64,000 nucleotides of DNA from Massilia sp. W12 (GTDB lineage Bacteria > Pseudomonadota > Gammaproteobacteria > Burkholderiales > Burkholderiaceae_D), in the NCBI RefSeq assembly GCF_037300705.1, contig NZ_CP147776.1, positions 5,026,857-5,090,856 on the forward strand, given 5' to 3'. This document shows positions 33,089-48,483 of the stretch, in pieces. Position 1 is the stretch's first letter; each line of letters begins with the position of its first letter. The notes under the pieces were generated by a model. That model saw only the letters and a list, made by a program, of their open reading frames with translations, did not search any database and was not told the DNA's origin. Both the position numbers and the translations under genes were made by a program.

Positions 33089-33155
33089 ATTTTTCCTTCC
33101 TGGCTTTGTTAATCGGTATAACTGATGAACCGCAAGCTTCTCTTGCACAAATGAA

Positions 33156-33827
33156 TTAATTGGAACTGTCTTTATCCAGCGCCGCCACTTCGTAGCGCTG
33201 CTTTGTTTCGTCATAGGACAAAATGACAGCAATGGATTTTTTTCGTAAATGATTGGGGGTTTTTGCCCACACCCGGATATTCAGATTGACTCCCGTATCT
33301 TTGACTTCAGCACGGCCAAACTTTTCATCCACCGACAGCGTGGTGATCATGCAGCTCAAGCCGGTCAGGCTGTGATTGCTGCGCGCATGGTGTTTGACAA
33401 ACAATGGGCGCAGCGGTTTGATGGCCAGCGCAGACAAACGGATCGAACAGGCCGCGCTGAGCAATAAAACCATCGCGCCGGCAAGATAACGCAGCACATC
33501 ACTGCCCAACATCTGCAGCAGATATTTATGAATCAGCGCACTCAGCAACCAGGTGAAAAACACCAGCAGGGTCAGGACGATGGACAAGGGCACGCCGCCC
33601 AGGCCGAGCGCCACCAGATATGAGGCCAGCGAGTGCAAATCCGTGCTTTCGGCATGGGCATCAGTATGCAGATGCACATCAGCTGCGCCATCGCCGCTAT
33701 CGAGTTCCAGGTTGTCCCCCAGATCGACCAAGCCGATGATGGAAAACAACCAGTACACCAGCAAAATCGCCAAAAAGATGCCCGGTATGATGGTGGGAAA
33801 ACTGCCGAGCAATTGCCAGAGCGTCAT
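33156..33827 (-). CDS. YqiJ/NfeD-like inner-membrane protein (partner of flotillin).
   Basis: Several TM helices followed by a C-terminal soluble beta-rich segment (…EKFGRAEVKDTGVNLNIRVWAKT…), resembling the NfeD/YqiJ arrangement upstream of the flotillin gene. Confidence 0.55.
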   Translation of the reverse strand: MTLWQLLGSFPTIIPGIFLAILLVYWLFSIIGLVDLGDNLELDSGDGAADVHLHTDAHAESTDLHSLASYLVALGLGGVPLSIVLTLLVFFTWLLSALIHKYLLQMLGSDVLRYLAGAMVLLLSAACSIRLSALAIKPLRPLFVKHHARSNHSLTGLSCMITTLSVDEKFGRAEVKDTGVNLNIRVWAKTPNHLRKKSIAVILSYDETKQRYEVAALDKDSSN

Positions 33828-33830
33828 CCG

Positions 33831-34199
33831 TCACTCCTCTGTAGTCGTGTGAGACAGGCCCGCACCCAATTTAGCGGGTGCGGGGTGCAGCTCTGCAAAC
33901 GCAATCAAGGCTTGATGCAAAGCTTCTTTGACGGCCCGTTTGTCCGTTAATGTTATGCCAAAGCGCTGCGCCAGCAAAGCATAATCGGCTTCGCTCAAAC
34001 TCACGGTGAGGCGTGGCCGCACCGGTTTGCCAAGGCAGGGCAGATTGAGGATTTTGCGGATTTGATCGGAGGGAGAAAGCTGGTTCTCCCAGGCCGCATA
34101 ACGCACCGCCTCAATCACCTGCATCTCAACGTCGAATGCCACTTGCACCGCGCGTATCGCATCATCCGAGCTGCTCCAGCGTGAAGATGTTTTGACCAT
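33831..34199 (-). CDS. Small hypothetical protein (122 aa), possible RHH-like DNA-binding regulator of the operon.
   Basis: Tightly packed between the PspA-like and YqiJ-like genes (2-4 nt gaps). …RPRLTVSLSEADYALLAQRFGITL… is reminiscent of a CopG/RHH beta-strand + helix. Weak. Confidence 0.4.
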   Translation of the reverse strand: MVKTSSRWSSSDDAIRAVQVAFDVEMQVIEAVRYAAWENQLSPSDQIRKILNLPCLGKPVRPRLTVSLSEADYALLAQRFGITLTDKRAVKEALHQALIAFAELHPAPAKLGAGLSHTTTEE

Positions 34200-34200
34200 C

Positions 34201-34920
34201 TCAATCCACTTTCGCTAAATCCGGCCCGGCTGGCGCAGCTTTCGCCTTCAGTCTGGCCATCACCTCGGCTTTTTTGTCTTGCAATTCGCCGATGCCGGCT
34301 GCCGCCAGTTTGGCATCCAGGGCGCGATCACTCAGTTCGCTATCGAGCTGCGCGCGCGCTTGCATGCGGTCGGCATGATCTTGCTGACGTTGCTTGATAC
34401 GCTCCATGGATTCTTTGGCGTTCAGCAATTTCGAGCCGCTGCTGCCCATGCTGTCCTCAATCATGCTGGTGGCGCGGTACACGCTCTCGGTGGTTTTGGC
34501 CATCGCCAATTGCCGCTCATGCTCGCGCAAACTGGTTTCAGCATTCACAATCAAGCCCTTTAAGCGCTGCAATTGCCCGTCAAAAGATTGGTGTGCGGCG
34601 TTTTCTTCCGCCAGTGCGGTTTCCAGGTTGGCGATTTTATTCGCCACCTCCTCGGCCAGCGCGGCTTCATTTTTCTGCAAAGCTTGCAAAGCCTTGTCTT
34701 CATAGTTGGCGATTTCTTTTTGCAAGCGCTCGATTTCGCGCGCACTTTGCATTTGTTTGGCCATCAGCGCGGTTAAGTCCTGCCTGGCTTTGGCGACATG
34801 CGCCTTGGCCTCGACAATTTCCTGTTCGTAAATGGTGGTGGCGTTTTGATCGACCACGCTTTGTCCCATTTCGCGTAAATCGCCCCGCAGCATCGTCAGA
34901 ATTTTTGAAAAGATAGCCAT
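34201..34920 (-). CDS. PspA/IM30-family protein (YjfJ-like paralog).
   Basis: MAIFSKILTMLRGDLREMGQSVVDQNATTIYEQEIVEAKAHVAKARQDL… is a canonical PspA/IM30 N-terminus with a coiled-coil throughout. Confidence 0.8.
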   Translation of the reverse strand: MAIFSKILTMLRGDLREMGQSVVDQNATTIYEQEIVEAKAHVAKARQDLTALMAKQMQSAREIERLQKEIANYEDKALQALQKNEAALAEEVANKIANLETALAEENAAHQSFDGQLQRLKGLIVNAETSLREHERQLAMAKTTESVYRATSMIEDSMGSSGSKLLNAKESMERIKQRQQDHADRMQARAQLDSELSDRALDAKLAAAGIGELQDKKAEVMARLKAKAAPAGPDLAKVD

Positions 34921-34950
34921 GATATAGCCCTCCTTAATTAGTGCAGATTT

Positions 34951-35403
34951 TTAAACACTCAGTAAATATTCAGCGAACACGTCCAATGCTTCCAAGGCAT
35001 TGTCGGCCAGCATCACCACATCATGCGCCACATCCTCCACCCTGGCGTCTGTCGCCAGGGCGCCGAAAATCACATAATGCTGGCCGATGCGGCCAAAGTG
35101 AGAGAGCGGAATCGCCACATTCAAATCCAGCATCGCCTCGTGCATTTCACTGCGCCGCGCAGGATTGATTTCAGCTTCGCGCCACAGATAGCAAATGCAC
35201 AAAATCTGGCTTGGCGACACCGTGACAAAAACCGGTAATTCTTCACGGTTTTCAATGCTGATGCGCAACACCGGGACGGTTTGCGCATCAGCGGCGGGCA
35301 ACTTGGAGACAGAAAACGACGTTGCGCCTAATCGTTGGCCCAGGGCCTGTTCCAAACCGGATAGCTGCCCGGAAGCTTGGCCCGGTTCATTCATTTCAAC
35401 CAT
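34951..35403 (-). CDS. YjfI-like (DUF2170-type) protein, first gene of the operon.
   Basis: 150 aa and acidic, immediately upstream of the PspA-family gene as in enterobacterial yjfI-yjfJ. Confidence 0.5.
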   Translation of the reverse strand: MVEMNEPGQASGQLSGLEQALGQRLGATSFSVSKLPAADAQTVPVLRISIENREELPVFVTVSPSQILCICYLWREAEINPARRSEMHEAMLDLNVAIPLSHFGRIGQHYVIFGALATDARVEDVAHDVVMLADNALEALDVFAEYLLSV

Positions 35404-35439
35404 TTTTCCCCTCGTCTAGTTGTGGATCTGTCGTTTGCG

Positions 35440-35490
35440 GTACGACATAATATGTCAAAGTGTAGCGCAATGACATAATATGTCAAGAAA
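35440..35490 (-). promoter_or_regulatory. Putative sigma70 promoter (TTGACA -35, TACACT -10) with two copies of a 13-bp near-palindromic operator GACATATTATGTC (minus-strand reading) overlapping the -35 box and the start region.
   Basis: The minus-strand reading is cTTGACATATTATGTCattgcgcTACACTtTGACATATTATGTCgtac. It lies 40-90 bp upstream of the yjfI-like start. Confidence 0.5.
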
Positions 35491-35597
35491 TTTCTGGAAG
35501 GGAACTCGGAGCGGGTCTGGCGCACTGGCCGGGCCGGGGCGCGGCGAAGAAGCGGCGGCGCGACGGCGATGCAGGCGGAAGGGGTTTGCAAGACGGC

Positions 35598-35697
35598 TGA
35601 GCGCCGCAATGAGGTCTGGCTTAATCCGCCATCAAAGCTGGACCAGCGCATGGTTGCTTAATCGATTTTTTGCGACAACTACCTTGACACGCTCCGG
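35598..35697 (+). mobile_element. About 100-bp remnant of the left end (with terminal IR) of the IS3-family element, in inverted orientation, abutting a truncated CRISPR repeat.
   Basis: 35607-35697 is the reverse complement of 38135-38230 / 39018-39110 (…gcgacaactaccttgacacgctccgg). It is followed at 35698 by gaaactataac, the rc of repeat positions 1-11. Confidence 0.8.
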
Positions 35698-36764
35698 GAA
35701 ACTATAACAACTCAACCGCAGGAACCCCCTCTGCAAGCATTATAGCTTTCCGGGGTGAGAGAGGAAACTATAACCGCCACACCGTGTACTGATCAGCAAA
35801 CTCAATTATAGCTTTCCGGGGTGAGAGAGGAAACTATAACATTTAATGATGCCGGAAAACCTGCCGAAAAATTATAGCTTTCCGGGGTGAGAGAGGAAAC
35901 TATAACCGTCGCCAAAGTGGAAGCGCAAGAAATTGGATTATAGCTTTCCGGGGTGAGAGAGGAAACTATAACATGAGCGAAAGCGGAATCGTCTCCGTTC
36001 TCATTATAGCTTTCCGGGGTGAGAGAGGAAACTATAACAATTTGACGGGCAATTTCCTCCTCCGCAAGATTATAGCTTTCCGGGGTGAGAGAGGAAACTA
36101 TAACTTTCCATGCCTAAAGCCTGAGTCAAGCTGTATTATAGCTTTCCGGGGTGAGAGAGGAAACTATAACTGGTGCGGTAGCAATTATTTTGTTGATAAT
36201 ATTATAGCTTTCCGGGGTGAGAGAGGAAACTATAACCGTCAAGATGTCGCTCAGCGCAGTCGAGCTATTATAGCTTTCCGGGGTGAGAGAGGAAACTATA
36301 ACCCTCGCCGCGCGCCTGTATGCGATGGTGGAATTATAGCTTTCCGGGGTGAGAGAGGAAACTATAACCATCGCCGCGCTGTCCTCGACTCGGTTGCGAT
36401 TATAGCTTTCCGGGGTGAGAGAGGAAACTATAACTGTTTTTGCGTTTTGTTTTGCATATTGTTTATTATAGCTTTCCGGGGTGAGAGAGGAAACTATAAC
36501 TTCCTCTTCTTCTTTGACTTGTGATATTGTATTATAGCTTTCCGGGGTGAGAGAGGAAACTATAACGCGCTTGGCGCTGGCCGTGCGCGGCTCCACATTA
36601 TAGCTTTCCGGGGTGAGAGAGGAAACTATAACCTGTCATGCGGCGGCCTGCGGCTTGTATGCATTATAGCTTTCCGGGGTGAGAGAGGAAACTATAACCC
36701 CGATGCCGCAAGCGAGCCGTCCCCACGGATTATAGCTTTCCGGGGTGAGAGAGGAAACTATAAC
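35698..36764 (-). CRISPR. CRISPR array 1: 16 full 36-bp repeats plus one 11-nt repeat stub, about 30-bp spacers, type II-C repeat. It is inverted relative to array 2, so crRNA sense is the minus strand.
   Basis: Repeat ATTATAGCTTTCCGGGGTGAGAGAGGAAACTATAAC (plus-strand reading) at 35739, 35805, … 36729 with a 66-bp period. The 16 spacers are all different. Confidence 0.95.
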
Positions 36765-38134
36765 CCATTCCATTACACACAACTCAGTCTTGCAATGCGC
36801 CCATCTCGCGTAGAGTCCTGATTGTCTGAGCCGAAACTTGAACATCCTGTAGACCTCGCCAGATTGTTTTCACGCCAGGCTCCCCGTCATGTTTTCGTGC
36901 GAGAAAACCGCCGACACGGGCTACCATGCGCAACACCTCGTTCAAGCCCGGCATAGCGGGCGCCTTCTTTTTATTGAGCAGATAAGCCGCTCGGATTTCG
37001 TCGGGATCGAAGAACAAAGTGGCGTCGAGATCCGGACAGGTACGTCCCTTACGCATCAGGTACGCGATACGCCAGGCCACCACCATAAACAGCGCCAGCG
37101 CCCGCTCCAGCCGGGCCATGGTGGACAGTTGCAGTTCTTCGACTTCACAGCCATTCTTGAGCACATTGAAAAAGATCTCAATTTCCCAGCGCGCGCGATA
37201 CCAGTCGATCAGTTCGCTGGCGTCGGCCAAGGTTTCCGCGCGGCGGTTGGTCAGCAAGCGCCATTCCACCGGTTTGATGCCCGTCGGCGGCTGCACTTCG
37301 GATGCTACGATGCAGGTCGCCTCGATCTTGCCGCGCTTGCCATCACGCAGCAGAACGCGCTTGGCCCACACCTGCTGACGTACCTGGCGCGCCCTTTGCT
37401 TGCCGCGCCCGGCCATGATGAAGCTGATCTCGCCCAGCGGCATACCGGCCGTGGTTTCAGGCCACAGGCGTTTGCTTTCGCCGTCAGCCAGACAGCGATC
37501 ATGCTTGGCGCGCACCAGCCAATCGGCAGGCGTGCCCAATTCGGCTGCGCGCCGCAGCATTCCCATCATGTCCGCTTCGCGGTCAGCCACATACACCAGA
37601 CGGGTATTGGGCAACTGGGTCGCCTGCTCGGCGACCCGCTCGTAGCCCTCTATCCAGCGTTCACTCTCTTTTACGCTGGCGGGGCGCTTGCCGTCAGCGC
37701 CACGCTCTTCACGCGCCCACATCCAGCCATCGAGCAGGCCCAGCGGCTCACGCTCTGGCGACACCGCGTAGGTCGGATGCACATACATGCCGCGCCGCGC
37801 TTCGTAGTTGAGCGGGCCGAGGCCGTCGATGTTTTGGCCGCTGAAGTCCAGTTCGGTGGTGTCCTGAATGCACAGAATAACCTTCTGCGTCGCCATGCGT
37901 TCCATGGTGCGCGCCCAATGTGGCGCCAGAATGCCATCCCATGTCACCTCCGGATTGGCCATAAAGCGGTAGGCCGCTTGCGTCTCCGTCCAGTTGTCGC
38001 ATGCTTCGGGAATGCTGGCCTTCGGTTTGGTCGCGAATGTTTCCATCAATTTTCTCGCCCTGTTGTTAAGGCGGGCATCGCCAAGATCGAGTCCGCCAAA
38101 CTCATCGTCGGTCCAACTCTGTGCTGCTTGCTTT
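36765..38134 (-). mobile_element. IS4-family (Tn5/IS50-like) element, 5'-truncated by the IS3 insertion. Transposase CDS 36784-38134; the ORF-track N-terminus to 38289 is read-through into the IS3 end.
   Basis: The transposase reads …LGDARLNNRARKLMETFATKPKASIPEACDNWTETQAAYRFMANPEV… (parallels the Tn5 Tnp N-terminus) and …YRARWEIEIFFNVLKNGC… (the YREK signature of the IS4 family). The first ~50 codons of ORF 36784..38289 are identical to the IS3 end sequence. Confidence 0.75.
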
Positions 38135-39017
38135 CCGGAGCGTGTCAAGGTAGTTGTCGCAAAAAATCGATTAAGCAACCATGCGCTGGTCCAGCTTTGA
38201 TGGCGGATTAAGCCAGACCTCATTGGGCGCCAGCCAGGGCCGTGTATGACGCTTCCAGCGCAGCGGATGGCGTTGCCGGGCTTCGGCATAAACGTCGCGT
38301 CGGCGCTCCAGGATCACATTGGCGGCGCCCGTATGGCGCTGCTCCGGCGTCACATAGGCCAAGGCGCTGTGCAAATGGGTGCAGTTGTACCAAGTCACAA
38401 ATTGCAGTGTCCAATCCCGAGCCTGCGCGATGCTCTCAAAGCCTTTGGCTGGATAGCTGGGCGCATATTTACAGGTGCGGAACCACGCTTCGATATGGGC
38501 ATTGTCATCGGAGACGCCAGGCCGGCTATGCGAGGAGCCGATGCCCAGCATTTCCAACTTGCTCTTGAGCGTGTGCGAAGTTTGCGCAGCACCGTTATCG
38601 GCATGCAGCACCAATGGCGTGCAGCGGCGCTGTTCACGCCAGCAGGCGCGCTCAATCAGTAAAGCAGCTTCCTCACCATTTTCCCGCTCGTGGACTTCCC
38701 ATGCGACCAGTTTGCGGCTGTAAATATCGAGCACGGCATACAGATAAAAATACTGGCCGCGCACCCGGCTGGGCAGGTACGTCACGTCCCAGCTCCAGAC
38801 CTGGTTGGGGCCATGGGCGACATGGCGCACCGGCTCGCTGGCCACAGGAGCCTTGCTGCGACCCCGGTGATGCTGCTGGTCGGCGCTTCTCAGCACACGA
38901 TAGAACGACGATTCCGATGCCACATACGCTCCCTCGTCGGCCAGCCGCGGCACGATCTGCGCTGGCGGCAAATCGGCAAAGCGCGGTTCATGACACAGTT
39001 GCAGGATGCGCTGACGT
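38135..39017 (-). mobile_element. IS3-family copy C, left part. It carries the orfB C-terminal 266 codons (38171-38971) and the left IR. Copy C is split by insertion of copy B, and its right part is 40668-41433.
   Basis: 38135-39017 is identical or near-identical to 39018-39900 of copy B. ORF 38171..38971 equals residues ~84-349 of the copy-B OrfB. Confidence 0.85.
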
Positions 39018-40667
39018 TCCGGAGCGTGTCAAGGTAGTTGTCGCAAAAAATCGATTAAGCAACCATGCGCTGGTCCAGCTTTGATGGCGGATTAAGCCAG
39101 ACCTCATTGGGCGCCAGCCAGGGCCGTGTATGACGCTTCCAGCGCAGCGGATGGCGTTGCCGGGCTTCGGCATAAACGTCGCGTCGGCGCTCCAGGATCG
39201 CATTGGCGGCGCCCGTATGGCGCTGCTCCGGCGTCACATAGGCCAAGGCGCTGTGCAAATGGGTGCAGTTGTACCAAGTCACAAATTGCAGTGTCCAATC
39301 CCGAGCCTGCGCGATGCTCTCAAAGCCTTTGGCTGGATAGCTGGGCGCATATTTACAGGTGCGGAACCACGCTTCGATATGGGCATTGTCATCGGAGACG
39401 CCAGGCCGGCTATGCGAGGAGCCGATGCCCAGCATTTCCAACTTGCTCTTGAGCGTGTGCGAAGTTTGCGCAGCACCGTTATCGGCATGCAGCACCAATG
39501 GCGTGCAGCGGCGCTGTTCACGCCAGCAGGCGCGCTCAATCAGTAAAGCAGCTTCCTCACCATTTTCCCGCTCGTGGACTTCCCATGCGACCAGTTTGCG
39601 GCTGTAAATATCGAGCACGGCATACAGATAAAAATACTGGCCGCGCACCCGGCTGGGCAGGTACGTCACGTCCCAGCTCCAGACCTGGTTGGGGCCATGG
39701 GCGACATGGCGCACCGGCTCGCTGGCCACAGGAGCCTTGCTGCGACCCCGGTGATGCTGCTGGTCGGCGCTTCTCAGCACACGATAGAACGACGATTCCG
39801 ATGCCACATACGCTCCCTCGTCGGCCAGCCGCGGCACGATCTGCGCTGGCGGCAAATCGGCAAAGCGCGGTTCATGACACAGTTGCAGGATGCGCTGACG
39901 TTCTTCATCAGACAGTTTGTGCGCAGGCGCTGGCCGCTCTGCCTCCGGTCGGCCGTCAGGACGAATTTCACCGTCACAACGCCAACGTTCCAAGGTGCGC
40001 ACGCTTAGACCGAGTTCGGCGCATGCCAATGCTAAACGCGCACCAGCCTTCCGGGCCTGCAGAATATCGGCGATCATTTCAAGGCGCTGGGGCAACGCAG
40101 TCATGCGTCCTCGCCGTCGATCCCCAGCGCCTCGTACTTTCGGGACAGAACCAGCAAGGCCGCTGTTTCCGCCAGCGCTTTTTCTTTACGCCGCAAATCC
40201 TTTTCCAGCTCCTTGATGCGCTTTTTGTCTTTGGCCCGGGCTGCAGCATCGGCTTGACTGCTCTGGCTGCTAAGCGCAGCGTGCATTTCTGTGCGCCAGC
40301 GCTCCAGTTGCGCTACCAGCAAGCCTTTACGGCGGCAATACTCAGCCAGCTCTGCTTCGTTCAGCGGCGCCGCTTCCAGTACTGCAGCAAATTTGTCCGC
40401 AGCACGCCATTGCTCGGGGTTTTGTCCGTCGCCAGGCACAACACGACCGGCTTCACGGGCCTGCTTCCGCCACAGGTAAAGCGTAGCCTCTGGCACGCCG
40501 CTTATCTCAGCGACCTCGGCCACAGACTTGTTTTGTGGTGCGCTCATCAGCTTGAGCACATGTTCTTTCTTCTCTTGTGTGTATTTCATTATCGTCTGTT
40601 CCATCGCCCCCGGGATGGATTAGAACTCCAAATCACTGGAGGCGACAACTATTTTGACACGGGGGGG
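39018..40667 (-). mobile_element. IS3-family insertion sequence, copy B (complete, about 1.65 kb). Its orfA is 40101-40589 and its orfB (DDE integrase-type) is 39055-40104. Imperfect terminal IRs (cgtgtcaaGGtagttgtcgc / cgtgtcaaAAtagttgtcgc) and a flanking TT/TTC duplication.
   Basis: OrfA MKYTQEKKEHVLKLM…GVPEATLYLWRKQ (HTH) has an ATGA overlap with OrfB (…HADNGAAQTSH…DNAHIEAWFRT…, rve/DDE). The flanks are gacgTTC[IS]TTCttcatcagac, where the uninterrupted sequence is gacgttcttcatcagac. Confidence 0.85.
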
Positions 40668-41433
40668 TTCTTCATCAGACAGTTTGTGCGCAGGCGCTGG
40701 CCGCTCTGCCTCCGGTCGGCCGTCAGGACGAATTTCACCGTCACAACGCCAACGTTCCAAGGTGCGCACGCTTAGACCGAGTTCGGCGCATGCCAATGCT
40801 AAACGCGCACCAGCCTTCCGGGCCTGCAGAATATCGGCGATCATTTCAAGGCGCTGGGGCAACGCAGTCATGCGTCCTCGCCGTCGATCCCCAGCGCCTC
40901 GTACTTTCGGGACAGAACCAGCAAGGCCGCTGTTTCCGCCAGCGCTTTTTCTTTACGCCGCAAATCCTTTTCCAGCTCCTTGATGCGCTTTTTGTCTTTG
41001 GCCCGGGCTGCAGCATCGGCTTGACTGCTCTGGCTGCTAAGCGCAGCGTGCATTTCTGTGCGCCAGCGCTCCAGTTGCGCTACCAGCAAGCCTTTACGGC
41101 GGCAATACTCAGCCAGCTCTGCTTCGTTGAGCGCCGCCGCTTCCAGTACCGCAGCAAATTTCTCCGCAGCACGCCATTGCTCGGGGTTTTGTCCGTCGCC
41201 AGGCACAACACGACCGGCTTCACGGGCCTGCTTCCGCCACAGGTAAAGCGTAGCCTCTGGCACGCCGCTTATCTCAGCGACCTCGGCCACAGACTTGTTT
41301 TGTGGTGCGCTCATCAGCTTGAGCACATGTTCTTTCTTCTCTTGTGTGTATTTCATCATCGTCAGTTCCATCGCCCCCGGCATGGATTAGAACTCCAAAT
41401 CACTGGAGGCGACAACTATTTTGACACGGGGGG
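40668..41433 (-). mobile_element. IS3-family copy C, right part. It has the first 68 codons of orfB (40668-40871), an intact orfA (40868-41356) and the right IR, and it abuts a truncated CRISPR repeat at 41434.
   Basis: ORF 40620..40871 matches the copy-B OrfB N-terminus up to …KLSDEE and then runs into the copy-B IR. ORF 40868..41383 is 98% identical to the copy-B OrfA. 41411-41433 gcgacaactattttgacacgggggg is the IR. Confidence 0.85.
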
Positions 41434-43441
41434 TTCCTCTCTCACCCCGGAAAGCTATAATAGCAATTTTTGAAAAGGCGCGTGCAGGAGAGTTATAGTT
41501 TCCTCTCTCACCCCGGAAAGCTATAATCCGTAATCAGATGGTGAATCATTGCTGGCAGTTATAGTTTCCTCTCTCACCCCGGAAAGCTATAATGGGGCGT
41601 CTGACGTGTAAAGTGCCGGCACAGTTATAGTTTCCTCTCTCACCCCGGAAAGCTATAATGGCGAATGTCAGGGTTGGTCTTCCTCAGCGGTTATAGTTTC
41701 CTCTCTCACCCCGGAAAGCTATAATTCAATTAATGTCAACTCTGGGCTGAATTCAGTTATAGTTTCCTCTCTCACCCCGGAAAGCTATAATCCACCTGAA
41801 AAGAAGAAAAAAGCTTAAGCGGTTATAGTTTCCTCTCTCACCCCGGAAAGCTATAATGCGGCGGTTAATGCGGCAATCGTCACGATTGTTATAGTTTCCT
41901 CTCTCACCCCGGAAAGCTATAATGCACCAGGTGCCCCGGCGTGCGTTTTGCGCGTTATAGTTTCCTCTCTCACCCCGGAAAGCTATAATGCCTGGGTGGC
42001 TTGATCAGGCCAGTTATCAGTTATAGTTTCCTCTCTCACCCCGGAAAGCTATAATCGAGCAGCAGAGCGGAGAGATGATAAAAATGTTATAGTTTCCTCT
42101 CTCACCCCGGAAAGCTATAATGGCGGGAGTTTATTATCAGCTGGTACTTGTGTTATAGTTTCCTCTCTCACCCCGGAAAGCTATAATGCCAGGCGCGCCG
42201 GCAGCGGGATCCATCGGGTTATAGTTTCCTCTCTCACCCCGGAAAGCTATAATGATGGCGGTTGTATTGGCGACTGCAACATAGTTATAGTTTCCTCTCT
42301 CACCCCGGAAAGCTATAATGCAACACACGTTGTTGCACCATATTTACCGGTTATAGTTTCCTCTCTCACCCCGGAAAGCTATAATCCAGGACTGCGAACA
42401 GAATCATAATCGAGGGTTATAGTTTCCTCTCTCACCCCGGAAAGCTATAATCCTGATGAGGAAGAGAGCGAAGATAAAGATGTTATAGTTTCCTCTCTCA
42501 CCCCGGAAAGCTATAATACGGATCGTAAAGAGCTGATGCGGCATCAGGTTATAGTTTCCTCTCTCACCCCGGAAAGCTATAATGGATCATACTCGGAAAC
42601 AGTAGAGTAAACAGTTATAGTTTCCTCTCTCACCCCGGAAAGCTATAATTTTGTAACGGCTGAGGAGACTACGCGATTCGTTATAGTTTCCTCTCTCACC
42701 CCGGAAAGCTATAATAACTGCATCAGATGTAGCTGATTTACTTATGTTATAGTTTCCTCTCTCACCCCGGAAAGCTATAATATTGCCGAGCCTGTCGCGC
42801 AACTCAAGCGCGTTATAGTTTCCTCTCTCACCCCGGAAAGCTATAATGCTGCGCGCCGTACTGATGCCGCAGACTTCGTTATAGTTTCCTCTCTCACCCC
42901 GGAAAGCTATAATAAGGCATAATTGAGGGCTTGACCAAGCCACGTTATAGTTTCCTCTCTCACCCCGGAAAGCTATAATAGCAGCAAGGATTCGACGGCA
43001 TGAATTCGGGTTATAGTTTCCTCTCTCACCCCGGAAAGCTATAATGCCGGTTGCTTTACGTGTTTTCATATTGGCGTTATAGTTTCCTCTCTCACCCCGG
43101 AAAGCTATAATAAATGACTAATGTAGCACGCAATTTGGAATGTTATAGTTTCCTCTCTCACCCCGGAAAGCTATAATATGGGCATGTGCCAAACTGTCGC
43201 GTCAGGGGTTATAGTTTCCTCTCTCACCCCGGAAAGCTATAATGTGTCGTTGAGATAACTTGCTTTCCTTTTGGTTATAGTTTCCTCTCTCACCCCGGAA
43301 AGCTATAATTTAATCACAAGCATGAAAGCGCCAATACCCGTTATAGTTTCCTCTCTCACCCCGGAAAGCTATAATATCAATGTTGCGTAGCTCGACCTCA
43401 ATGCGGTTATAGTTTCCTCTCTCACCCCGGAAAGCTATAAT
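41434..43441 (+). CRISPR. CRISPR array 2: one 28-nt truncated repeat plus 30 full 36-bp repeats, 30-nt spacers, type II-C, adjacent to cas2. Each repeat ends in a -10-like GCTATAAT.
   Basis: Repeat GTTATAGTTTCCTCTCTCACCCCGGAAAGCTATAAT at 41492, 41558, … 43406 (66-bp period). The first unit at 41434 lacks its first 8 nt at the IS junction. Confidence 0.95.
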
Positions 43442-43451
43442 ATCCCACGCA

Positions 43452-43480
43452 CAAACCCTTGATTTTCAAGGGTTTTTTGC
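43452..43480 (+). terminator. Hairpin + T-run between the last repeat and cas2 (caaaCCCTTGattttCAAGGGttttttgcg).
   Basis: Perfect 6-bp stem followed by a T-run on the crRNA-sense (plus) strand. Confidence 0.5.
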
Positions 43481-43504
43481 GTTTTTGACGTGTCAAAAAC
43501 GCGC

Positions 43505-43813
43505 TCAAAACAGCAATAATTGGCTTGCATTGACCTTTTTTTCCTGAAAACTGGCTTCGCCCACCAGCATTTTCATATTGCTGAACTGGCGTTCGCTGAT
43601 TTGCAGATAGCGCACAGAACCCTGCGGCGGCAGATTTGCGCACAGGCGTTTGACATGTTTTTCCATATCGTCATTGCCATTCACCAGACGCGCATAGACT
43701 GAGAATTGTAGCATGTCGTAACCTTCACTCTGCAAAAAGCGGCGGAATTGAGCATACGCGCGGCGCTCGGTGCGCAGCTTGACCGGCAAATCAAAAAAGA
43801 CCATTAATCGCAT
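43505..43813 (-). CDS. cas2: CRISPR-associated endoribonuclease Cas2 (type II).
   Basis: MRLMVFFDLPVKLRTERRAYAQFRRFLQSEGYDMLQFSVYARL… is a Cas2 fold signature. There is a GAGGAAG RBS upstream of the ATG at 43813. It lies directly between cas1 and the array. Confidence 0.85.
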   Translation of the reverse strand: MRLMVFFDLPVKLRTERRAYAQFRRFLQSEGYDMLQFSVYARLVNGNDDMEKHVKRLCANLPPQGSVRYLQISERQFSNMKMLVGEASFQEKKVNASQLLLF

Positions 43814-43833
43814 AAACTTCCTCGTCTCTGCGC

Positions 43834-44772
43834 TCACGCCCCGCACTCCGTATCAAATAATGCCCCCTGCCGCCCCTGCGCGTCGATGCAAGGCAGGCTC
43901 AAGCGCGCCTTGCTGTCGCCTTCCAGCGCGCGCACCAGACTTTGCACGCTTTGCTCCAGCGCCGCCAGCACAGTGCAGCGCCCTGACTGTGTTTGCAGCG
44001 GCACATCCTGGTGCAGAAAACTGATCAATTGCGCCTTGTCTTGTGGCGTCAGGCTGGCCGCCTGTTCTTCCGGGTAATGGCGTAAAACCCAGGCGTCCAG
44101 CAGCGGGCGCCAGGGTTCTATCATGTCGTCGGCTAAATTAAAGGCATTGAATTCATTGCAATGGTGCAGGCCATGCGCCGGCAGCAGGCCGGCGGCGCAT
44201 AAGGCGCGCGCCAGCGCAGCGCGCACGATGGCGTAGGCATAGTTCAAGCCGGCGTTCCAAAAGCGTTCATCGCCACGCCGGAAGTCGCGCCCAAACAGCG
44301 CCAGGAAATATTTTTGCGCCGCTTGCGCTTCCAGATTATCCGGGTCGCCGGAGCGCACGCGCGTCGCCAATTCCTGTAAGTGCGCCGCGCTTTGCGTCTG
44401 GCCGTGCAGGGCCAGTACGCAGGCTTGATTATCAATTTTCTGTTTGATGATTTGCTGCCACAGGCGTTTTTGCAGCGGCGCGCCAGCCGCCAATTGCAGA
44501 CGCAATACGCGCAAAAAGCGGAAATGCGGGGTGAAGGGCAGCAACATGCCATTCGGCAAATGCTGGCCATTCACCGTGATCAGGGCGATTTGCTCCTGCG
44601 ACAACGCCGCCAGCAGGGCCGCGCTGAGCGTGACTTGCGGCTGATCCAGCACCAGCGCCGCAATATCTTCCAACGGCACTTGGGCGCTGCCGGCATCCTG
44701 CTCAATCAAGAGGCTGCGCTGGCGCAGGGCCAGACGGGCCGGCTGGCTGATCAATACGCTGCGCCAGCCCAT
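43834..44772 (-). CDS. cas1: CRISPR-associated endonuclease Cas1 (type II-C).
   Basis: Internal start MGWRSVLISQPARLALRQRSLLIEQDAGSAQVPLEDIAALVL… closely parallels the Neisseria Cas1 N-terminus (MTWRS…LEDIAV…). It has …AQAAQKYFLALFG…. The ATG lies 1 nt from the cas9 stop. Confidence 0.9.
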   Translation of the reverse strand: MGWRSVLISQPARLALRQRSLLIEQDAGSAQVPLEDIAALVLDQPQVTLSAALLAALSQEQIALITVNGQHLPNGMLLPFTPHFRFLRVLRLQLAAGAPLQKRLWQQIIKQKIDNQACVLALHGQTQSAAHLQELATRVRSGDPDNLEAQAAQKYFLALFGRDFRRGDERFWNAGLNYAYAIVRAALARALCAAGLLPAHGLHHCNEFNAFNLADDMIEPWRPLLDAWVLRHYPEEQAASLTPQDKAQLISFLHQDVPLQTQSGRCTVLAALEQSVQSLVRALEGDSKARLSLPCIDAQGRQGALFDTECGA

Positions 44773-44773
44773 A

Positions 44774-47700
44774 TCACGCTCCGCTGCGCCGCAAGGCTTG
44801 GCGCGTTTCGGGGCGCGCTTTGAACAAGCGGCCCAGCATATCGACATGGCATTTTTCAATATTGGCGGCGGTTTTAATGCCAATGCCGCGCTGCAGTCCG
44901 GCTGTGCCAACGGCTTGATTGCGGTCATGCGTCCATAGGCTGAAGGACGCGGTGGCGCGATCCATGCCGCCGAAATATCCTTCTTTCACGCCCTTGGCGC
45001 CCAGGTCAATGCGCAACCAGTCATTTGGGTGCACGCTGAAGCAAAAGGTGTAACTCGCATCCATTTCCGGCCATTCGCTTTCCGCTTTGTTGGCCAGGGC
45101 TGCTTTGTTCGGCAATGCGGCCCGCACCAGGTCCGCCACATACAGGGGCACGGCAAAATATTTGCCGCCTTTGACAAACACATCCACGCGCAACATGACG
45201 CCATTGTCGGCTATGCCGCCGCGCACCGGAATGCCGCTCTTTTGTGTGGTGAGCAGGCGCACGCTGCGCACCAGGGGCGCGGTTTTATCGCTTGCGCTGG
45301 GGCGGTAAAACGGTGCGGCGAAGGCTTTTTGGCCATCGTCTTTATGCAATTCCAAGCGTTCGCGCAAGGCTTCGATCAGACGCGCATTGCGCGGGTCGTG
45401 TGCGCCGGCGATGTTGTCCAGGTCTTTCAATTTTAATTTTTGCAAAGGCGTGTTGACTGCGCTCTGGCCGGTGGCGATGCCCTGCACTGCGCGGATGGTG
45501 TCGGCATGCGCTTCGCCGCTGCCGCGCCGCATTGGCGCGCGCGAGACGCGCACCGGGGCCACGCCTTGCGCCGGGTAGCCGGGGATGCGCGCTAAGCCGT
45601 GTTCCGGGTTGGGCGAGAGGCGGGCCAATAATTCTGCGCGGAAATGCGGCCAGGGCGGCGGAAAGTCTTCGCGCTGGCGCGCGGCCTGGATGATTTCGCC
45701 GGTTTCCGGGTCGGTATAGCTGTCGTTGAGGGCATATAACTCGCCCTGTCTGGCCCAGTAGCTGATGCGGTTCACCAGTTGCGGGGTGCAGGCGGCAATC
45801 ACCGCCGCATCCAGCGCATGATGTAAATCACCGCCTTCGCGTGCTTTCAGCAAACCCCATTTCATGCGCAAAAAGCCGGTCAATTGCCCGCTTACGACGA
45901 CGCAGCGCTGATAAGTCTTGCCGTCGGCAGCCACCGGCGCCAGTTGCAATTGCTGTTCCACCATGTTTTTAAAGCTGCGGCAGATGTAGCGCGTGTCGTT
46001 CAAATTGCGCTCTTTGAATTCCTGCGCCTGTTCTGCGCCAAAGTCTTTGCGCAAGAGGCGTTGTTTCTTGGCCTGGCGCAATTTACCGGCTTCGACCCAG
46101 GCTTGAAAATGGCGCCAGCTTTGGCTGTCTTCGCCTTCGCGCCCCAGCCATTCCCAGGGCGTGCGGTTGCCTTTATTACGGTTGCAGTGGGTGTGCGCCA
46201 GCACTTTATTATTCTGGCTGTCGTCAAAGCTGCGCGAATAAGGCAGGATGTGTTCGATTTCAGCATAACCCGCTTCAAACAGGCGTCCGATGTCCAGACT
46301 TTGCTGGCAATACGGACATTGCGCAAGCTGTTCGCCATACAGCCGGGTTTTGAGCACATCTTGCCCTTTGGCCTGGCGTTGATATTGATCTTCAAATAAT
46401 TTGACGGCTTTTTCTTTCTCAACCTGGAATTTTTCCTGCTCTTTGCTGATTTTCTGCCGTTCGTCAAACGGCTTGGCCAAATCGCGCGCCAGCTCAATAT
46501 GCACGCGCGCCGGGCTGCCGTATTGATCAATCAGGGCGTTGACCATTTTGCGCGCCTGGTTGATGGCGCGGTACACCACCGGATTGGCGAAATCTTCGCG
46601 GCGCGGCGGGCTGAGACGGGGCCGCTTGCCTTGGCTGAGCGGTAAGGCGCTGTGATGGGTGTAGCCGGCGTCTTGCACCGCTTCGTCATAGCGCCGCCCG
46701 GCTTGCATAAACGGCAGGATGCGTTTCAGCGCTTTGACAGAGAGGCCGATGAAGTCGCTGAAGCTGTGCTCCAGCGCGCTTTCGATGATGGCGTCGGCAA
46801 AGCCGGCTTGCGCCAGTGCTTTGCGGATTTCATCGTCATCTTTAAAACAGCTCAGCGTCCAGGCCAGCGCTTCCAGCCTGTCGTCTTGCAGGCGGTCTTG
46901 CAACCAGGCGTCTTTGGCGCCGGCTTTTTCATACATTTTGCGCAGGGTGTGAAAGCCGCTGGCTTCAAACAGCTTGGCGTCTTCCGGGTTTTTGCCTTCG
47001 GTGCGGTAACTCAGGCCGACAAAGGTGTCGCGCTCTGGCAAGTCGAGTTTCTTGCGCACTTGTTTATATGTGAGTTTGTCTTGCTCAAACGGCAGATTCA
47101 GCAGCAGCGTTCGTTCACTTTCATCCAGCTCGCGCCGCCGGCCATTGGAGACGATGCGTAAATTATTCAGGCGCGTCAGCCAGACAAAGCGTTCGGCGTG
47201 GATGCCGCGCTTGGGCGCGCGGTGTTCTGTCGGCTCAAAGGTGCAATAGCCGACCATTTTCAGTAAATTCGCGCCCGACAGGGTGGGGCGGCGCTCCATC
47301 AACAGTTTTTCACATTGCAATTGCAATTCGGTGCTGATGAGCGGATTGCCCAATTCGCGCTGTACGCGGAAAATCTCGCGCAATTCTTTTTGCAATTCCA
47401 GCCGGGAAAAAGTGTGGCGGTAATCGCCACCCTTGTTGCGCTTGGCTTGTTGAAATTCTTCATGCTTTAGGGCCAGTTCGGCCATGCTGCGGAAGTTGTG
47501 CGTTTCTTTCAGCTGTTGATTGCGCTGCACCCCGCTGAGCATTTGCCCGGCTTGTTCGTCGTTGTTGACTTCGCTTTTGCGGTTGGAATAAAAGCCGCGA
47601 TGTTTGATCAGGTGGTATAGCGCAAGCGCCAATTCTTCGCCGCTCAAGCGCTGATCCAAACCCTTGACCCGCAATTCCCAGGGCGAGAGCGGATGGACGG

Positions 47701-47956
47701 GCAAGTCCTGGCCGGCCAGTAAGCCGCAGCGCTTGAACAGGCGGCGCAGGCGCAGCAGGCGGTGGGCGCGGCGGCGCAGGCGGCGCCGGGCGAGGCGTTT
47801 TTCGCGCCGGCTTTTGTTTAACGATTCGCCGGTTTTCGGCACTTCCGCCTTGTCAAAGGCGCGCACATGCAAACCGAGTATGCGTTCACCCTGCAACACC
47901 GCTGCGCCAACTGACGCCATGCCGATATCCAAACCAAACACCAATTCTGCGCTCAT
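44774..47956 (-). CDS. cas9: Cas9 (type II-C, 1060 aa) with RuvC-I, HNH and RuvC-III motifs.
   Basis: N-terminus VFGLDIGMASVGAAV (RuvC-I Asp), an Arg-rich bridge helix RREKRLARRRLRRRAHRLLRL, HNH EIEHILPYSRSFDDSQNNKVLAHTHCNRNKGNRTPWEW, and RuvC-III HHALDAAVIA. Its size and the absence of csn2/cas4 imply II-C. Confidence 0.95.
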   Translation of the reverse strand: MSAELVFGLDIGMASVGAAVLQGERILGLHVRAFDKAEVPKTGESLNKSRREKRLARRRLRRRAHRLLRLRRLFKRCGLLAGQDLPVHPLSPWELRVKGLDQRLSGEELALALYHLIKHRGFYSNRKSEVNNDEQAGQMLSGVQRNQQLKETHNFRSMAELALKHEEFQQAKRNKGGDYRHTFSRLELQKELREIFRVQRELGNPLISTELQLQCEKLLMERRPTLSGANLLKMVGYCTFEPTEHRAPKRGIHAERFVWLTRLNNLRIVSNGRRRELDESERTLLLNLPFEQDKLTYKQVRKKLDLPERDTFVGLSYRTEGKNPEDAKLFEASGFHTLRKMYEKAGAKDAWLQDRLQDDRLEALAWTLSCFKDDDEIRKALAQAGFADAIIESALEHSFSDFIGLSVKALKRILPFMQAGRRYDEAVQDAGYTHHSALPLSQGKRPRLSPPRREDFANPVVYRAINQARKMVNALIDQYGSPARVHIELARDLAKPFDERQKISKEQEKFQVEKEKAVKLFEDQYQRQAKGQDVLKTRLYGEQLAQCPYCQQSLDIGRLFEAGYAEIEHILPYSRSFDDSQNNKVLAHTHCNRNKGNRTPWEWLGREGEDSQSWRHFQAWVEAGKLRQAKKQRLLRKDFGAEQAQEFKERNLNDTRYICRSFKNMVEQQLQLAPVAADGKTYQRCVVVSGQLTGFLRMKWGLLKAREGGDLHHALDAAVIAACTPQLVNRISYWARQGELYALNDSYTDPETGEIIQAARQREDFPPPWPHFRAELLARLSPNPEHGLARIPGYPAQGVAPVRVSRAPMRRGSGEAHADTIRAVQGIATGQSAVNTPLQKLKLKDLDNIAGAHDPRNARLIEALRERLELHKDDGQKAFAAPFYRPSASDKTAPLVRSVRLLTTQKSGIPVRGGIADNGVMLRVDVFVKGGKYFAVPLYVADLVRAALPNKAALANKAESEWPEMDASYTFCFSVHPNDWLRIDLGAKGVKEGYFGGMDRATASFSLWTHDRNQAVGTAGLQRGIGIKTAANIEKCHVDMLGRLFKARPETRQALRRSGA

Positions 47957-47993
47957 ACTGGCATTCCTTTAAAAACTGTTTTATACTCGACTC

Positions 47994-48090
47994 ATTGTAG
48001 CTTTCCGGGGTGAGAGCCGTTGCTATAATAAAGTTGTCCCTTCGGGGACAAGCTGTATCCAACCCGGCTTCGGCCGGGTTTCTCTTTTCT
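47994..48090 (+). ncRNA. tracrRNA: tracrRNA, divergent from cas9. It has an anti-repeat, two UUCG-tetraloop hairpins and an intrinsic terminator. A putative -10 TATACT lies at 47982-47987.
   Basis: ATTGTAGCTTTCCGGGGTGAGAGccgttgCTATAATaaag… matches the reverse complement of the repeat (ATTATAGCTTTCCGGGGTGAGAGaggaaaCTATAAC) with an internal mismatch bulge like the Neisseria tracrRNA (…GAGAACCGUUGCUACAAUAAGG…). Then GTCCCttcgGGGAC and CCCGGCttcgGCCGGG + UUUCUCUUUU. Confidence 0.8.
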
Positions 48091-48483
48091 GCCTCCCCTT
48101 TTGCACTGCTCTTGCTGATACGCCTTTGTGGCGACACATGGGGCCTGACGCCGGCGTATCGCTGCGCGCAACCCGGCCACTTTCTTGGCCTTGAATCGGG
48201 TTGAGTGAGCGCTTTGATTTTACCTGCACGCTGTGTTGTTTTATGCTTGATGCGCGTAAAATCAGGCTGTTGCTTAGTCAATAAAACAACGACTTGTTAA
48301 ACTGCCAGTGTTTGTGTTGGCGCAGTGTATTGATCTGCAATGCAACTTTCCGCCGATGCGCTATGGCGCGCCGGGCTGCGATGTTTGCAGTGTCCCATTT
48401 TTAACGCTTTTGCGCGTGGCGGCGCTTTACCCTTTGCGGCTTCCGTTGTAAGGTGAGCCATCGTCACGCCTGCAGGAGTTGTT

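What the first reader, a model, noticed from the sequence alone, without database searches (positions are those of the whole stretch)
35598..43441. A single type II-C CRISPR array was split by an IS3-family insertion inside a repeat, and its distal half was then inverted
The two arrays share one 36-bp repeat but face opposite ways. The junctions fit together: on the plus strand the IS right end (…gcgacaactattttgacacgggggg, ending 41433) is followed at 41434 by repeat positions 9-36 (TTCCTCTCTCACC…), and at 35598-35697 an inverted IS left end is followed at 35698 by the reverse complement of repeat positions 1-11 (GAAACTATAAC). The overlap, positions 9-10/11 (TT/TTC), is the same 2-3 bp target duplication that the complete IS copy B made when it inserted into copy C. 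So one IS landed in a repeat, and later recombination or transposition between IS copies inverted about 1.1 kb of array, 16 repeats. Spacer gain and loss and interference output of the distal half are likely altered.
Basis: seen in the sequence. Interest (0 to 1): 0.72.

Follow-up and report, generated by a model that had tools for sequence, protein, structure and literature searches.

The report
IS-split, partly inverted type II-C CRISPR array
One CRISPR array next to a Cas9 gene in Massilia sp. W12 was cut inside a repeat by a mobile element, and its older third was later flipped by recombination between copies of that element: a tidy but ordinary example of mobile-element scrambling.

Summary
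There are 46 identical 36-nt repeats: 16 on the minus strand (35739-36764) and 30 on the plus strand (41492-43441). All 46 spacers are 30 nt and unique.

A 1647-bp IS3-family element (copy C, with copy B nested inside it) ends at 41433 and abuts repeat positions 9-36. An inverted 102-nt remnant of the other IS end (35595-35696) abuts repeat positions 1-12. Joining the two stubs and removing a 4-bp overlap (TTCC) rebuilds the exact repeat. B's nested insertion made a duplication of the same length (GTTC). If the boundary C is counted as IS, both are 3 bp.

The flipped segment is 2.44 kb, not 1.1 kb. It also carries a 5'-truncated IS4-family element whose tip lies 1 nt from the outermost repeat.

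The history is well supported by the sequence, but no sister genome exists to show the ancestor; the next Cas9 is 62% identical.

The predicted functional damage is probably overstated. II-C arrays use repeat-borne promoters and add spacers at the cas-proximal end, and each repeat here ends in TATAAT. Probably only one spacer (35709-35738) is disabled.

This is a known kind of event, comparable to IS6110 in the M. tuberculosis DR locus and IS256 in a Flavobacterium II-C array. Interest is low to moderate.

The parts
35595..35696 (+). Remnant of the IS3-family element: about 100 nt of the orfB-proximal terminus, inverted relative to copies B and C. It has two 1-nt insertions (35600, 35606) next to the truncation point.
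   Evidence: (I1, I3), 4, 17 and 18: 100% identical to 39020-39109 over 35607-35696; 98% with 2 gaps out to 35595.
35697..35708 (-). Repeat stub, positions 1-12 (GTTATAGTTTCC on the minus strand), in phase with array 1. Positions 9-12 (TTCC) are one copy of the target duplication.
35709..36764 (-). Array 1: 16 spacers of 30 nt and 16 perfect repeats, crRNA sense on the minus strand. The spacer at 35709-35738 is followed only by the 12-nt stub.
   Evidence: (D2).
36766..38135 (-). IS4-family (Tn5/IS50-like) element, transposase on the minus strand (stop at 36784). About 70-90 bp are missing at its 5' end, including the inverted repeat and the start codon. The intact tip CATTCCATTACACACAAC begins 1 nt (C at 36765) from the outermost repeat.
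   Evidence: Tnp_DNA_bind, DDE_Tnp_1, Dimer_Tnp_Tn5. (NF033590, 386 bits against a cutoff of 160). (tip and 9-bp duplication defined on homolog L008). (no second tip in the window).
38136..39019 (-). IS3-family copy C, first part (IS positions 1-884). It abuts the truncated IS4 element and ends with GTTC (39016-39019), one copy of B's target duplication.
   Evidence: 1 mismatch to B in 884 nt.
39020..40666 (-). IS3-family copy B, complete at 1647 bp. orfA is 40101-40604 and orfB is 39055-40104, overlapping as ATGA in the -1 frame. It is nested in copy C.
   Evidence: NF033516, 188.7 bits against a cutoff of 160.
40667..41433 (-). Second GTTC copy (40667-40670) followed by IS3 copy C, second part (IS positions 885-1647). 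Seven of the eight B/C differences lie in IS positions 1343-1595.
   Evidence: clustering P about 5e-4.
41434..41461 (+). Repeat stub, positions 9-36, in phase with array 2. It begins with the second TTCC copy and keeps the TATAAT at its 3' end.
41462..43441 (+). Array 2: 30 spacers of 30 nt and 30 perfect repeats, crRNA sense on the plus strand and running toward cas2. By analogy with other II-C arrays, 43441 is the leader (variable) end.
   Evidence: (D1); PMC8092290 for polarity.
43453..43475 (+). Terminator-like hairpin with a T tract between array 2 and cas2. Relatives have a hairpin at the same place.
43505..47956 (-). cas operon: cas2 43505-43813, cas1 43834-44928 (ORF limits; the family match starts at residue 55), cas9 44774-47956. 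No csn2 or cas4.
   Evidence: TIGR01865 718 bits, TIGR03639 287 bits, TIGR01573 87 bits.
47990..48092 (+). Candidate tracrRNA: anti-repeat 47994-48016, then GCCGTTGCTATAATAAAG, two hairpins and a U tract.
   Evidence: MFE -38.1 kcal/mol, z -3.1. No Rfam family matched.

Best explanation
What it is. [quoted passage not shown] W12 (tracrRNA, cas9, cas1, cas2, array). It originally had one array of at least 47 repeats, read on the plus strand toward cas2.

Inferred sequence of events:
1. An IS4-family element inserted 1 nt outside a repeat in the old, cas-distal part.
2. A 1647-bp IS3-family element inserted into a repeat and duplicated TTCC (repeat positions 9-12).
3. A second IS3 copy, in the opposite orientation, landed about 80 bp inside the IS4 element.
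4. Homologous recombination between the two inverted IS3 copies flipped everything between them: 16 repeat-spacer units, the 12-nt repeat stub and the IS4 remnant (35697-38135).
5. The left recombinant IS3 copy was later deleted down to about 100 nt.
6. Copy B transposed into the right recombinant copy C and duplicated GTTC.

Shown: the junction sequences, the equal duplication lengths, the inverted IS ends, and the mosaic pattern of B/C differences.

Inferred: the order of events, the recombination mechanism, and the consequences below.

Expected consequences. II-C crRNAs start at promoters inside each repeat, and each repeat here ends in TATAAT. The flipped array should therefore still make crRNAs, now from the minus strand. 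Only the spacer at 35709-35738 is expected to be disabled, because it has lost its 3' repeat handle. Spacer acquisition at the cas2-proximal end should be unaffected.
For: - 46 identical repeats in two opposed blocks.
- rc(35697-35708) plus 41438-41461 equals the exact repeat, and the TTCC overlap has the same length as B's GTTC duplication.
- The stubs abut opposite IS termini in a consistent orientation.
- Independent breaks would give this fit with a probability of roughly 1/66 for position, times 1/4 for which IS end and which orientation. This is my estimate.
- Inverted IS3 ends (35595-35696 and 38136-38236) bracket the flipped segment.
- B and C differ at 1 site in IS positions 1-1342 and at 7 sites in 1343-1595 (scan-statistic P about 5e-4). 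The remnant carries two indels absent from B and C. This is what a crossover between a diverged old copy and a recent copy would leave.
- The IS4 tip lies 1 nt from the outermost repeat, and its other end is cut exactly at the IS3 terminus.
- All 46 spacers are unique, so this is not a duplication.
- Thiobacillus relatives (Cas9 55-57% identical) have single arrays of 14 and 59 repeats, oriented like array 2, with the repeat GTTGTAGCTCCCTCTCTCACCCCGGAAAGCTACAAT.
- The source contig is 6.14 Mb, so it is probably a finished assembly.
- Repeat-encoded promoters and leader-directed transcription in II-C: PMC5965381 and PMC8092290. An IS256-split II-C array that is still transcribed and still active: PMC10309648.
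Against: - No related genome with the uninverted or uninterrupted array was found. Exact protein look-ups failed, the repeat and the IS end are absent from metagenome contigs, and the next-best Cas9 is 62% identical.
- The reciprocal new junction, which would carry the second IS3 copy's duplication, has been deleted. The second insertion is therefore inferred, not seen.
- The mosaic could mean that B rather than C is the recombinant.
- The repeat has a perfect -10 box but no TG extension and no -35 box. The two-hexamer promoter scan did not call it, so promoter activity rests on analogy.
- Read data were not available to exclude a mis-oriented segment.
Confidence: 0.8

Rival explanations
1. 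Assembly artefact or mixed population. The 2.44-kb segment sits between about 100-bp perfect inverted repeats. The assembler may have chosen the wrong orientation, or both orientations may coexist in the culture. In either case the true or major form would be a simple IS insertion in a co-linear array.
For: The inverted IS ends at 35607-35696 and 38136-38225 are identical. Nested 99.9%-identical IS copies make this a hard region to assemble. No reads were available.
Against: The source contig is 6.14 Mb, which points to a long-read finished assembly that would span 2.4 kb. In the alternative orientation the locus would still contain an orphan IS3 end abutting the truncated IS4 element, so a rearrangement history is needed either way.
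Confidence: 0.1
2. One-step inversion by intramolecular replicative transposition of the repeat-borne IS3 copy into the IS4 element, rather than recombination between two pre-existing copies.
For: It gives the same topology: the old junctions are split between two inverted copies that bracket the inverted segment.
Against: From established knowledge of IS911, IS2 and IS3, IS3-family elements move by copy-out-paste-in through a circle, not by cointegrate-type replication. The remnant differs from copy C by two indels, and C is mosaic relative to B. Both fit a crossover between diverged copies better.
Confidence: 0.07
3. Two originally separate arrays with the same repeat were each hit independently by the IS at a preferred TTC(C) site. 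Later deletions removed the complementary halves.
For: All three preserved target flanks resemble each other (GTTC, TTCC, TTTC), which hints at a target preference. TTCC occurs on both strands of the repeat.
Against: It needs two insertions plus two deletions that leave exactly complementary stubs and opposite IS ends. Array 1 has no cas genes or leader of its own. Relatives have one array.
Confidence: 0.03

Closest known systems
IS6110 (IS3 family) in the direct-repeat (CRISPR) locus of the Mycobacterium tuberculosis complex
   Same: An IS3-family element sits inside a 36-bp CRISPR repeat and splits it into two stubs whose sum exceeds the repeat by the 3-bp target duplication. Recombination between IS copies then remodels the array (PMC7708916).
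   Different: In M. tuberculosis the system is type III-A and the IS-driven changes are deletions and duplications; that survey reports no inversion in 198 isolates. Here the system is type II-C and the outcome is an inversion, together with a nested second IS copy and an IS4 remnant.
IS256-interrupted type II-C array of Flavobacterium psychrophilum CN46
   Same: A type II-C array is split by an IS. Both truncated parts were transcribed and the system still interfered with plasmids (PMC10309648). This supports the view that splitting a II-C array need not silence it.
   Different: The IS family differs, no inversion of one part is described, and the function was tested there but not here.
Neisseria meningitidis / Campylobacter jejuni type II-C loci with repeat-embedded promoters
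   Same: The gene set is cas9-cas1-cas2 with a tracrRNA upstream of cas9. The 36-nt repeat is of the same family (GTT[G/A]TAG...GCTA[C/T]AAT). The array is read toward cas2. The tracrRNA core GAGA[A/G]CCGTTGCTA[C/T]AATAA matches the N. meningitidis one as I recall it (PMC5965381).
   Different: The -10 box here is TATAAT, preceded by AGC rather than the TGC I recall in Neisseria (an extended -10 box there). Promoter activity has not been tested here. Cas9 is only distantly related to characterised orthologs.
Inversions between inverted IS copies (a general bacterial genome rearrangement)
   Same: Inverted copies of one IS bracket the flipped segment, and the pre-existing junctions end up on different copies.
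   Different: One of the two copies has since been cut down to about 100 nt, and the reciprocal junction is lost.

Membership tests
Type II-C CRISPR-Cas | Cas9 effector with RuvC and HNH domains | tested here: met
   TIGR01865 at 718.6 bits (cutoff 100) over residues 6-1043; Pfam HNH_4, RuvC_III and Cas9_RuvC.
Type II-C CRISPR-Cas | Only cas1 and cas2 as adaptation genes; no csn2 (II-A) or cas4 (II-B) | tested here: met
   ORF survey of 43442-48483 shows cas2, cas1, cas9 and a tracrRNA, followed by an unrelated 364-aa ORF (not scanned against any family library). Cas1 matches the type II model TIGR03639 at 287 bits.
Type II-C CRISPR-Cas | tracrRNA with an anti-repeat complementary to the repeat | tested here: met
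   47994-48016 matches rc(repeat) with 1 mismatch. Downstream hairpins and a U tract follow, z -3.1.
Type II-C CRISPR-Cas | crRNAs initiated at promoters inside each repeat and transcribed toward the leader end | tested here: inconclusive
   Every repeat ends in TATAAT (positions 31-36) and a terminator follows array 2. There is no -35 box or TG extension, and the two-hexamer scan did not call the repeats. RNA data are needed.
IS3 family insertion sequence | OrfA (HTH) followed by OrfB (DDE/rve) in the -1 frame | tested here: met
   PF01527 in OrfA; PF00665 and PF13683 in OrfB; NF033516 at 188.7 bits (cutoff 160); ATGA overlap with orfB in the -1 frame.
IS3 family insertion sequence | 3-4 bp target-site duplication | tested here: met
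   GTTC flanks copy B, and the interrupted sequence is continuous in copy B itself. TTCC is shared by the two repeat stubs.
IS3 family insertion sequence | Imperfect terminal inverted repeats ending 5'-TG...CA-3' | tested here: inconclusive
   The inverted repeats TGTCAAGGTAGTTGTCGC and TGTCAAAATAGTTGTCGC are present, but the mobile unit extends 7 nt further at each end (CGGAGCG and CCCCCCG).
IS4 family (Tn5/IS50-like) | DDE transposase with Tn5-type DNA-binding and dimerisation domains | tested here: met
   NF033590 at 386.5 bits (cutoff 160); PF14706, PF01609 and PF02281.
IS4 family (Tn5/IS50-like) | Terminal inverted repeats with a 9-bp target duplication | tested here: inconclusive
   One tip is present (36766, CATTCCATTACACACAAC). 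It matches the tips of homolog L008, which has a 9-bp duplication. The other tip is missing from the window.
Inversion by recombination between inverted IS copies | Inverted copies of the same IS at both borders of the flipped segment | tested here: met
   35595-35696 against 38136-38236: 100% identical over 90 nt, 98% over about 102 nt.
Inversion by recombination between inverted IS copies | The two halves of one original insertion site lie on different IS copies, and the target duplication is in inverted relation | tested here: met
   Repeat positions 1-12 are next to the remnant and positions 9-36 are next to copy C. The TTCC copies at 35697-35700 (as GGAA) and 41434-41437 are inverted relative to each other.
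Inversion by recombination between inverted IS copies | Existence of the uninverted arrangement in relatives or in the population | not testable with these tools
   No close relative is in any collection, and no reads were available.

The most novel reading that the evidence does not exclude
The flipped array may be a natural test of orientation-independent crRNA production. If each repeat's TATAAT is an active promoter, array 1 still arms Cas9 from the opposite strand. Its 16 co-directional promoters would also read, with no predicted terminator, into the DUF2170-PspA-flotillin operon about 300 bp downstream, coupling a CRISPR array to a membrane-stress operon. The about 100-bp inverted IS ends could also let the 2.44-kb cassette flip back and forth.
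Probability: 0.15. Interest if true: 0.45.

Novelty: new member of a known kind. Interest (0 to 1): 0.25.

Why it matters
This is a clean, base-resolved example of how insertion sequences erode and scramble the old end of a CRISPR array. At least four IS-related events can be read from the junctions alone.

Its main practical value is for annotation. Array finders will report two opposed arrays for what is one locus, and one of them lacks a leader.

Biologically, it would show that II-C arrays tolerate fragmentation and inversion, but only if expression from the flipped part is confirmed. IS insertion in CRISPR repeats, IS-mediated rearrangement, and continued activity of an IS-split II-C array are all already documented, so it does not open a new question.

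Tried and rejected
- Exact-protein look-ups for Cas2, PspA, Cas9 and IS3 OrfB found nothing on record.
- The exact repeat and the IS3 end are absent from metagenome contigs.
- The Cas9-based scan of species-representative genomes found only relatives at 57% identity or less.
- The 5.8-billion-protein search found the source (Massilia sp. W12), but the next Cas9 is 62% identical. No ancestor or sister strain is available.
- An 89%-identical DUF2170 relative (L011, L012) conserves the psp promoter region up to about window 35494, but its contigs stop 211 bp upstream of the gene. The native origin of 35495-35594 therefore stays unresolved.
- IS3 copy B has no near match in the plasmid collection.
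- No spacer matches the phage collection, the rest of the window, or the IS elements at up to 6 mismatches. PAM and targets are unknown.
- Rfam gave no hit for the arrays or the tracrRNA.
- The original N. meningitidis paper (PMC3694421) is not held, so reviews were cited instead.
- I considered and rejected the idea that TTC is part of the IS with no duplication. Symmetry of the inverted repeats and continuity of copy C across B's insertion fit a 3-4 bp duplication.
- I considered and rejected array 1 being a duplicated part of array 2, because the minimum spacer Hamming distance is 12 of 30.
Full report
**Observation.** The 36-nt sequence GTTATAGTTTCCTCTCTCACCCCGGAAAGCTATAAT occurs 46 times in the window with no mismatch. 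Sixteen copies are on the minus strand (35739-36764) and 30 on the plus strand (41492-43441). All are spaced 66 nt apart, so every spacer is 30 nt. All 46 spacers are unique (minimum Hamming distance 12 of 30), so neither block is a copy of the other.

**The cas locus.** To the right of array 2 lie, in order:
- a terminator-like hairpin (43453-43475);
- cas2, cas1 and cas9 on the minus strand (TIGR01573, TIGR03639 and TIGR01865, all far above their cutoffs);
- a candidate tracrRNA on the plus strand, divergent from cas9. Its anti-repeat is at 47994-48016 with 1 mismatch, followed by two hairpins and a U tract, z -3.1.

There is no csn2 or cas4, so the gene content is type II-C. The Cas9 and a flanking protein are 100% identical to proteins of Massilia sp. 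W12 on a 6.14-Mb contig.

**The mobile elements.** Between the arrays are three copies or pieces of one IS3-family element and one IS4-family element.
- Copy B (39020-40666, 1647 bp) is complete. OrfA carries HTH_Tnp_1, and OrfB carries rve and scores 188.7 bits on NF033516 against a cutoff of 160.
- B sits inside copy C (38136-39019 plus 40671-41433). Because B itself contains the uninterrupted target sequence GACGTTCTTCATC, the insertion can be read exactly. The mobile unit runs from CGGAGCGTGTCAAGG... to ...TTTTGACACGGGGGG and is flanked by GTTC on both sides.
- If the C before CGGAGCG is counted as IS, the duplication is GTT.
- No other copy of either IS is in the window.

**The junctions.**
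- Copy C's right terminus (41433) is followed by repeat positions 9-36 (41434-41461), in phase with array 2.
- At the far left, 35595-35696 is an inverted copy of the other IS terminus. It is identical to B and C over 35607-35696, with two 1-nt insertions at 35600 and 35606.
- That remnant is followed at 35697-35708 by the reverse complement of repeat positions 1-12, in phase with array 1.
- Joining the two stubs and removing one TTCC gives the exact repeat.
- The overlap has the same length as B's duplication under either definition of the IS end: 4 and 4, or 3 and 3.
- The stubs carry opposite IS termini in a mutually consistent orientation.

For independent breaks I estimate this fit at well under 1%: about 1/66 for position, times 1/4 for which IS end and which orientation. 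Small corrections are the remnant limits, 1-12 versus 1-11, and a duplication of 3-4 bp rather than 2-3 bp.

**What was inverted.** The segment bracketed by the inverted IS3 termini is 35697-38135 (2439 bp), not just the 1.1 kb of array. It also contains an IS4-family, Tn5-like element at 36766-38135 (NF033590 at 386 bits, plus the Tn5 DNA-binding and dimerisation domains).

A Burkholderia plasmid homolog has two tips CATTCCATTACACACAAGTC and a 9-bp duplication. This places the window's tip at 36766, 1 nt from the outermost repeat. The other end of the IS4 element, about 70-90 bp including the start codon, is cut off exactly at copy C's terminus.

So the present outer end of array 1 is itself an IS junction. 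The ancestral array may have continued beyond it.

**Most likely history.**
1. The IS4 element inserts at a repeat boundary in the old part of the array.
2. An IS3 copy inserts in a repeat (TTCC).
3. A second, oppositely oriented IS3 copy inserts into the IS4 element.
4. Recombination between the two inverted copies flips the interval.
5. The left recombinant copy is deleted down to about 100 nt.
6. B transposes into C.

Steps 3-5 are inferred. Two observations support a crossover between diverged copies:
- B and C differ at only 1 site in IS positions 1-1342 but at 7 sites in positions 1343-1595 (scan statistic P about 5e-4).
- The remnant has two indels that neither B nor C has.

This is not decisive, because B rather than C could be the mosaic. 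A one-step replicative inversion gives the same topology but is not how IS3-family elements are known to move. The about 100-nt remnant alone would suffice as a recombination partner, so the cassette could in principle flip again.

**Relatives.** The nearest Cas9 proteins in species-representative genomes are 55-57% identical (Thiobacillus MAGs). Their loci have a single array of 14 or 59 perfect repeats after cas2, oriented like array 2. A hairpin lies between cas2 and the array, and the repeat is of the same family (GTTGTAGCTCCCTCTCTCACCCCGGAAAGCTACAAT). This makes array 1 the displaced part.

No closer relative exists in any collection searched. The 6.14-Mb source contig suggests a finished assembly, but reads were not available, so a mis-oriented or heterogeneous segment remains a minority possibility.

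**How it probably works now.** In N. meningitidis and C. jejuni II-C arrays, crRNAs start at promoters embedded in each repeat (PMC5965381). [quoted passage not shown] In this window:
- base 36 faces cas2, so 43441 is the acquisition end and array 1 is the oldest part;
- each repeat ends in a perfect TATAAT, although without a TG extension or a -35 box, and the generic two-hexamer scan did not call it.

If these promoters work, the inversion changes little. Array 1 would give minus-strand crRNAs. The 9-36 stub would still drive the first spacer of array 2. Only the spacer at 35709-35738 would lose its 3' repeat handle, because 12 nt cannot form the tracrRNA duplex.

The IS256-split II-C array of Flavobacterium psychrophilum CN46 is transcribed on both sides and remains active (PMC10309648), which supports this view. 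Two real changes remain. Repeat-repeat recombination between the two blocks would now invert rather than delete. Array 1 transcripts would now run toward the DUF2170-PspA operon.

**Comparison and novelty.** The closest precedent is IS6110, also IS3 family, inside a 36-bp repeat of the M. tuberculosis CRISPR locus. It shows the same split-repeat-plus-3-bp signature and IS-driven remodelling, though a survey of 198 isolates saw deletions and duplications but no inversions (PMC7708916). IS-mediated inversion is a textbook mechanism.

The case here is a new instance of known processes, nicely resolved, in a little-studied II-C system. It matters mainly for annotation (one locus, not two arrays) and as a candidate natural test of orientation-independent II-C crRNA expression.

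**Verdict.** The historical interpretation is supported with amendments. The functional interpretation is doubtful. Interest is low to moderate.

Noticed in passing
window 47990-48092 (+): Candidate tracrRNA divergent from cas9. Its anti-repeat has 1 mismatch, and the nexus-like GCCGTTGCTATAATAAAG resembles the N. meningitidis tracrRNA core as I recall it. Two hairpins and a U tract follow. No Rfam family matches it.
   Followed up: partly
window 30914-35486 (-): A psp-like operon lies directly left of the IS remnant: DUF2170/YjfI, PspA/IM30, two unannotated proteins and a 772-aa ORF (scanned against no family library here; its counterpart in the relative L011 carries Band_7). The promoter region carries two copies of the palindrome GACATAATATGTC, which are conserved in an 89%-identical relative (L011). 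Array 1 now points toward this operon with no predicted terminator in between.
   Followed up: partly
window 36784-38289 (-): A 501-aa chimeric ORF starts at an ATG inside IS3 copy C and reads in frame through the IS terminus into the 5'-truncated IS4 transposase. This could restore a start codon for the transposase.
   Followed up: no
window 38136-38160, 39020-39044, 40642-40666, 41409-41433: The IS3-family element's mobile unit extends 7 nt beyond the usual TG...CA inverted-repeat ends (CGGAGCG at one end, CGGGGGG at the other). All three preserved target flanks resemble each other (GTTC, TTCC, TTTC), which suggests a target preference.
   Followed up: partly
window 35495-35594: About 100 bp of GC-rich sequence lies between the conserved psp promoter region and the IS3 remnant. 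It has no counterpart in the closest relative's upstream region. Its origin (native flank or debris from the deletion) is unresolved.
   Followed up: partly
L011 and L012, position 1: Two independent Logan contigs from different samples that carry the 89%-identical DUF2170 gene both begin exactly 211 bp upstream of it. This suggests an assembly break at a repeat in that relative too.
   Followed up: no
window 25477-30780 (-): A very large ORF (1767 aa) lies upstream of the flotillin/psp cluster. It was not analysed.
   Followed up: no
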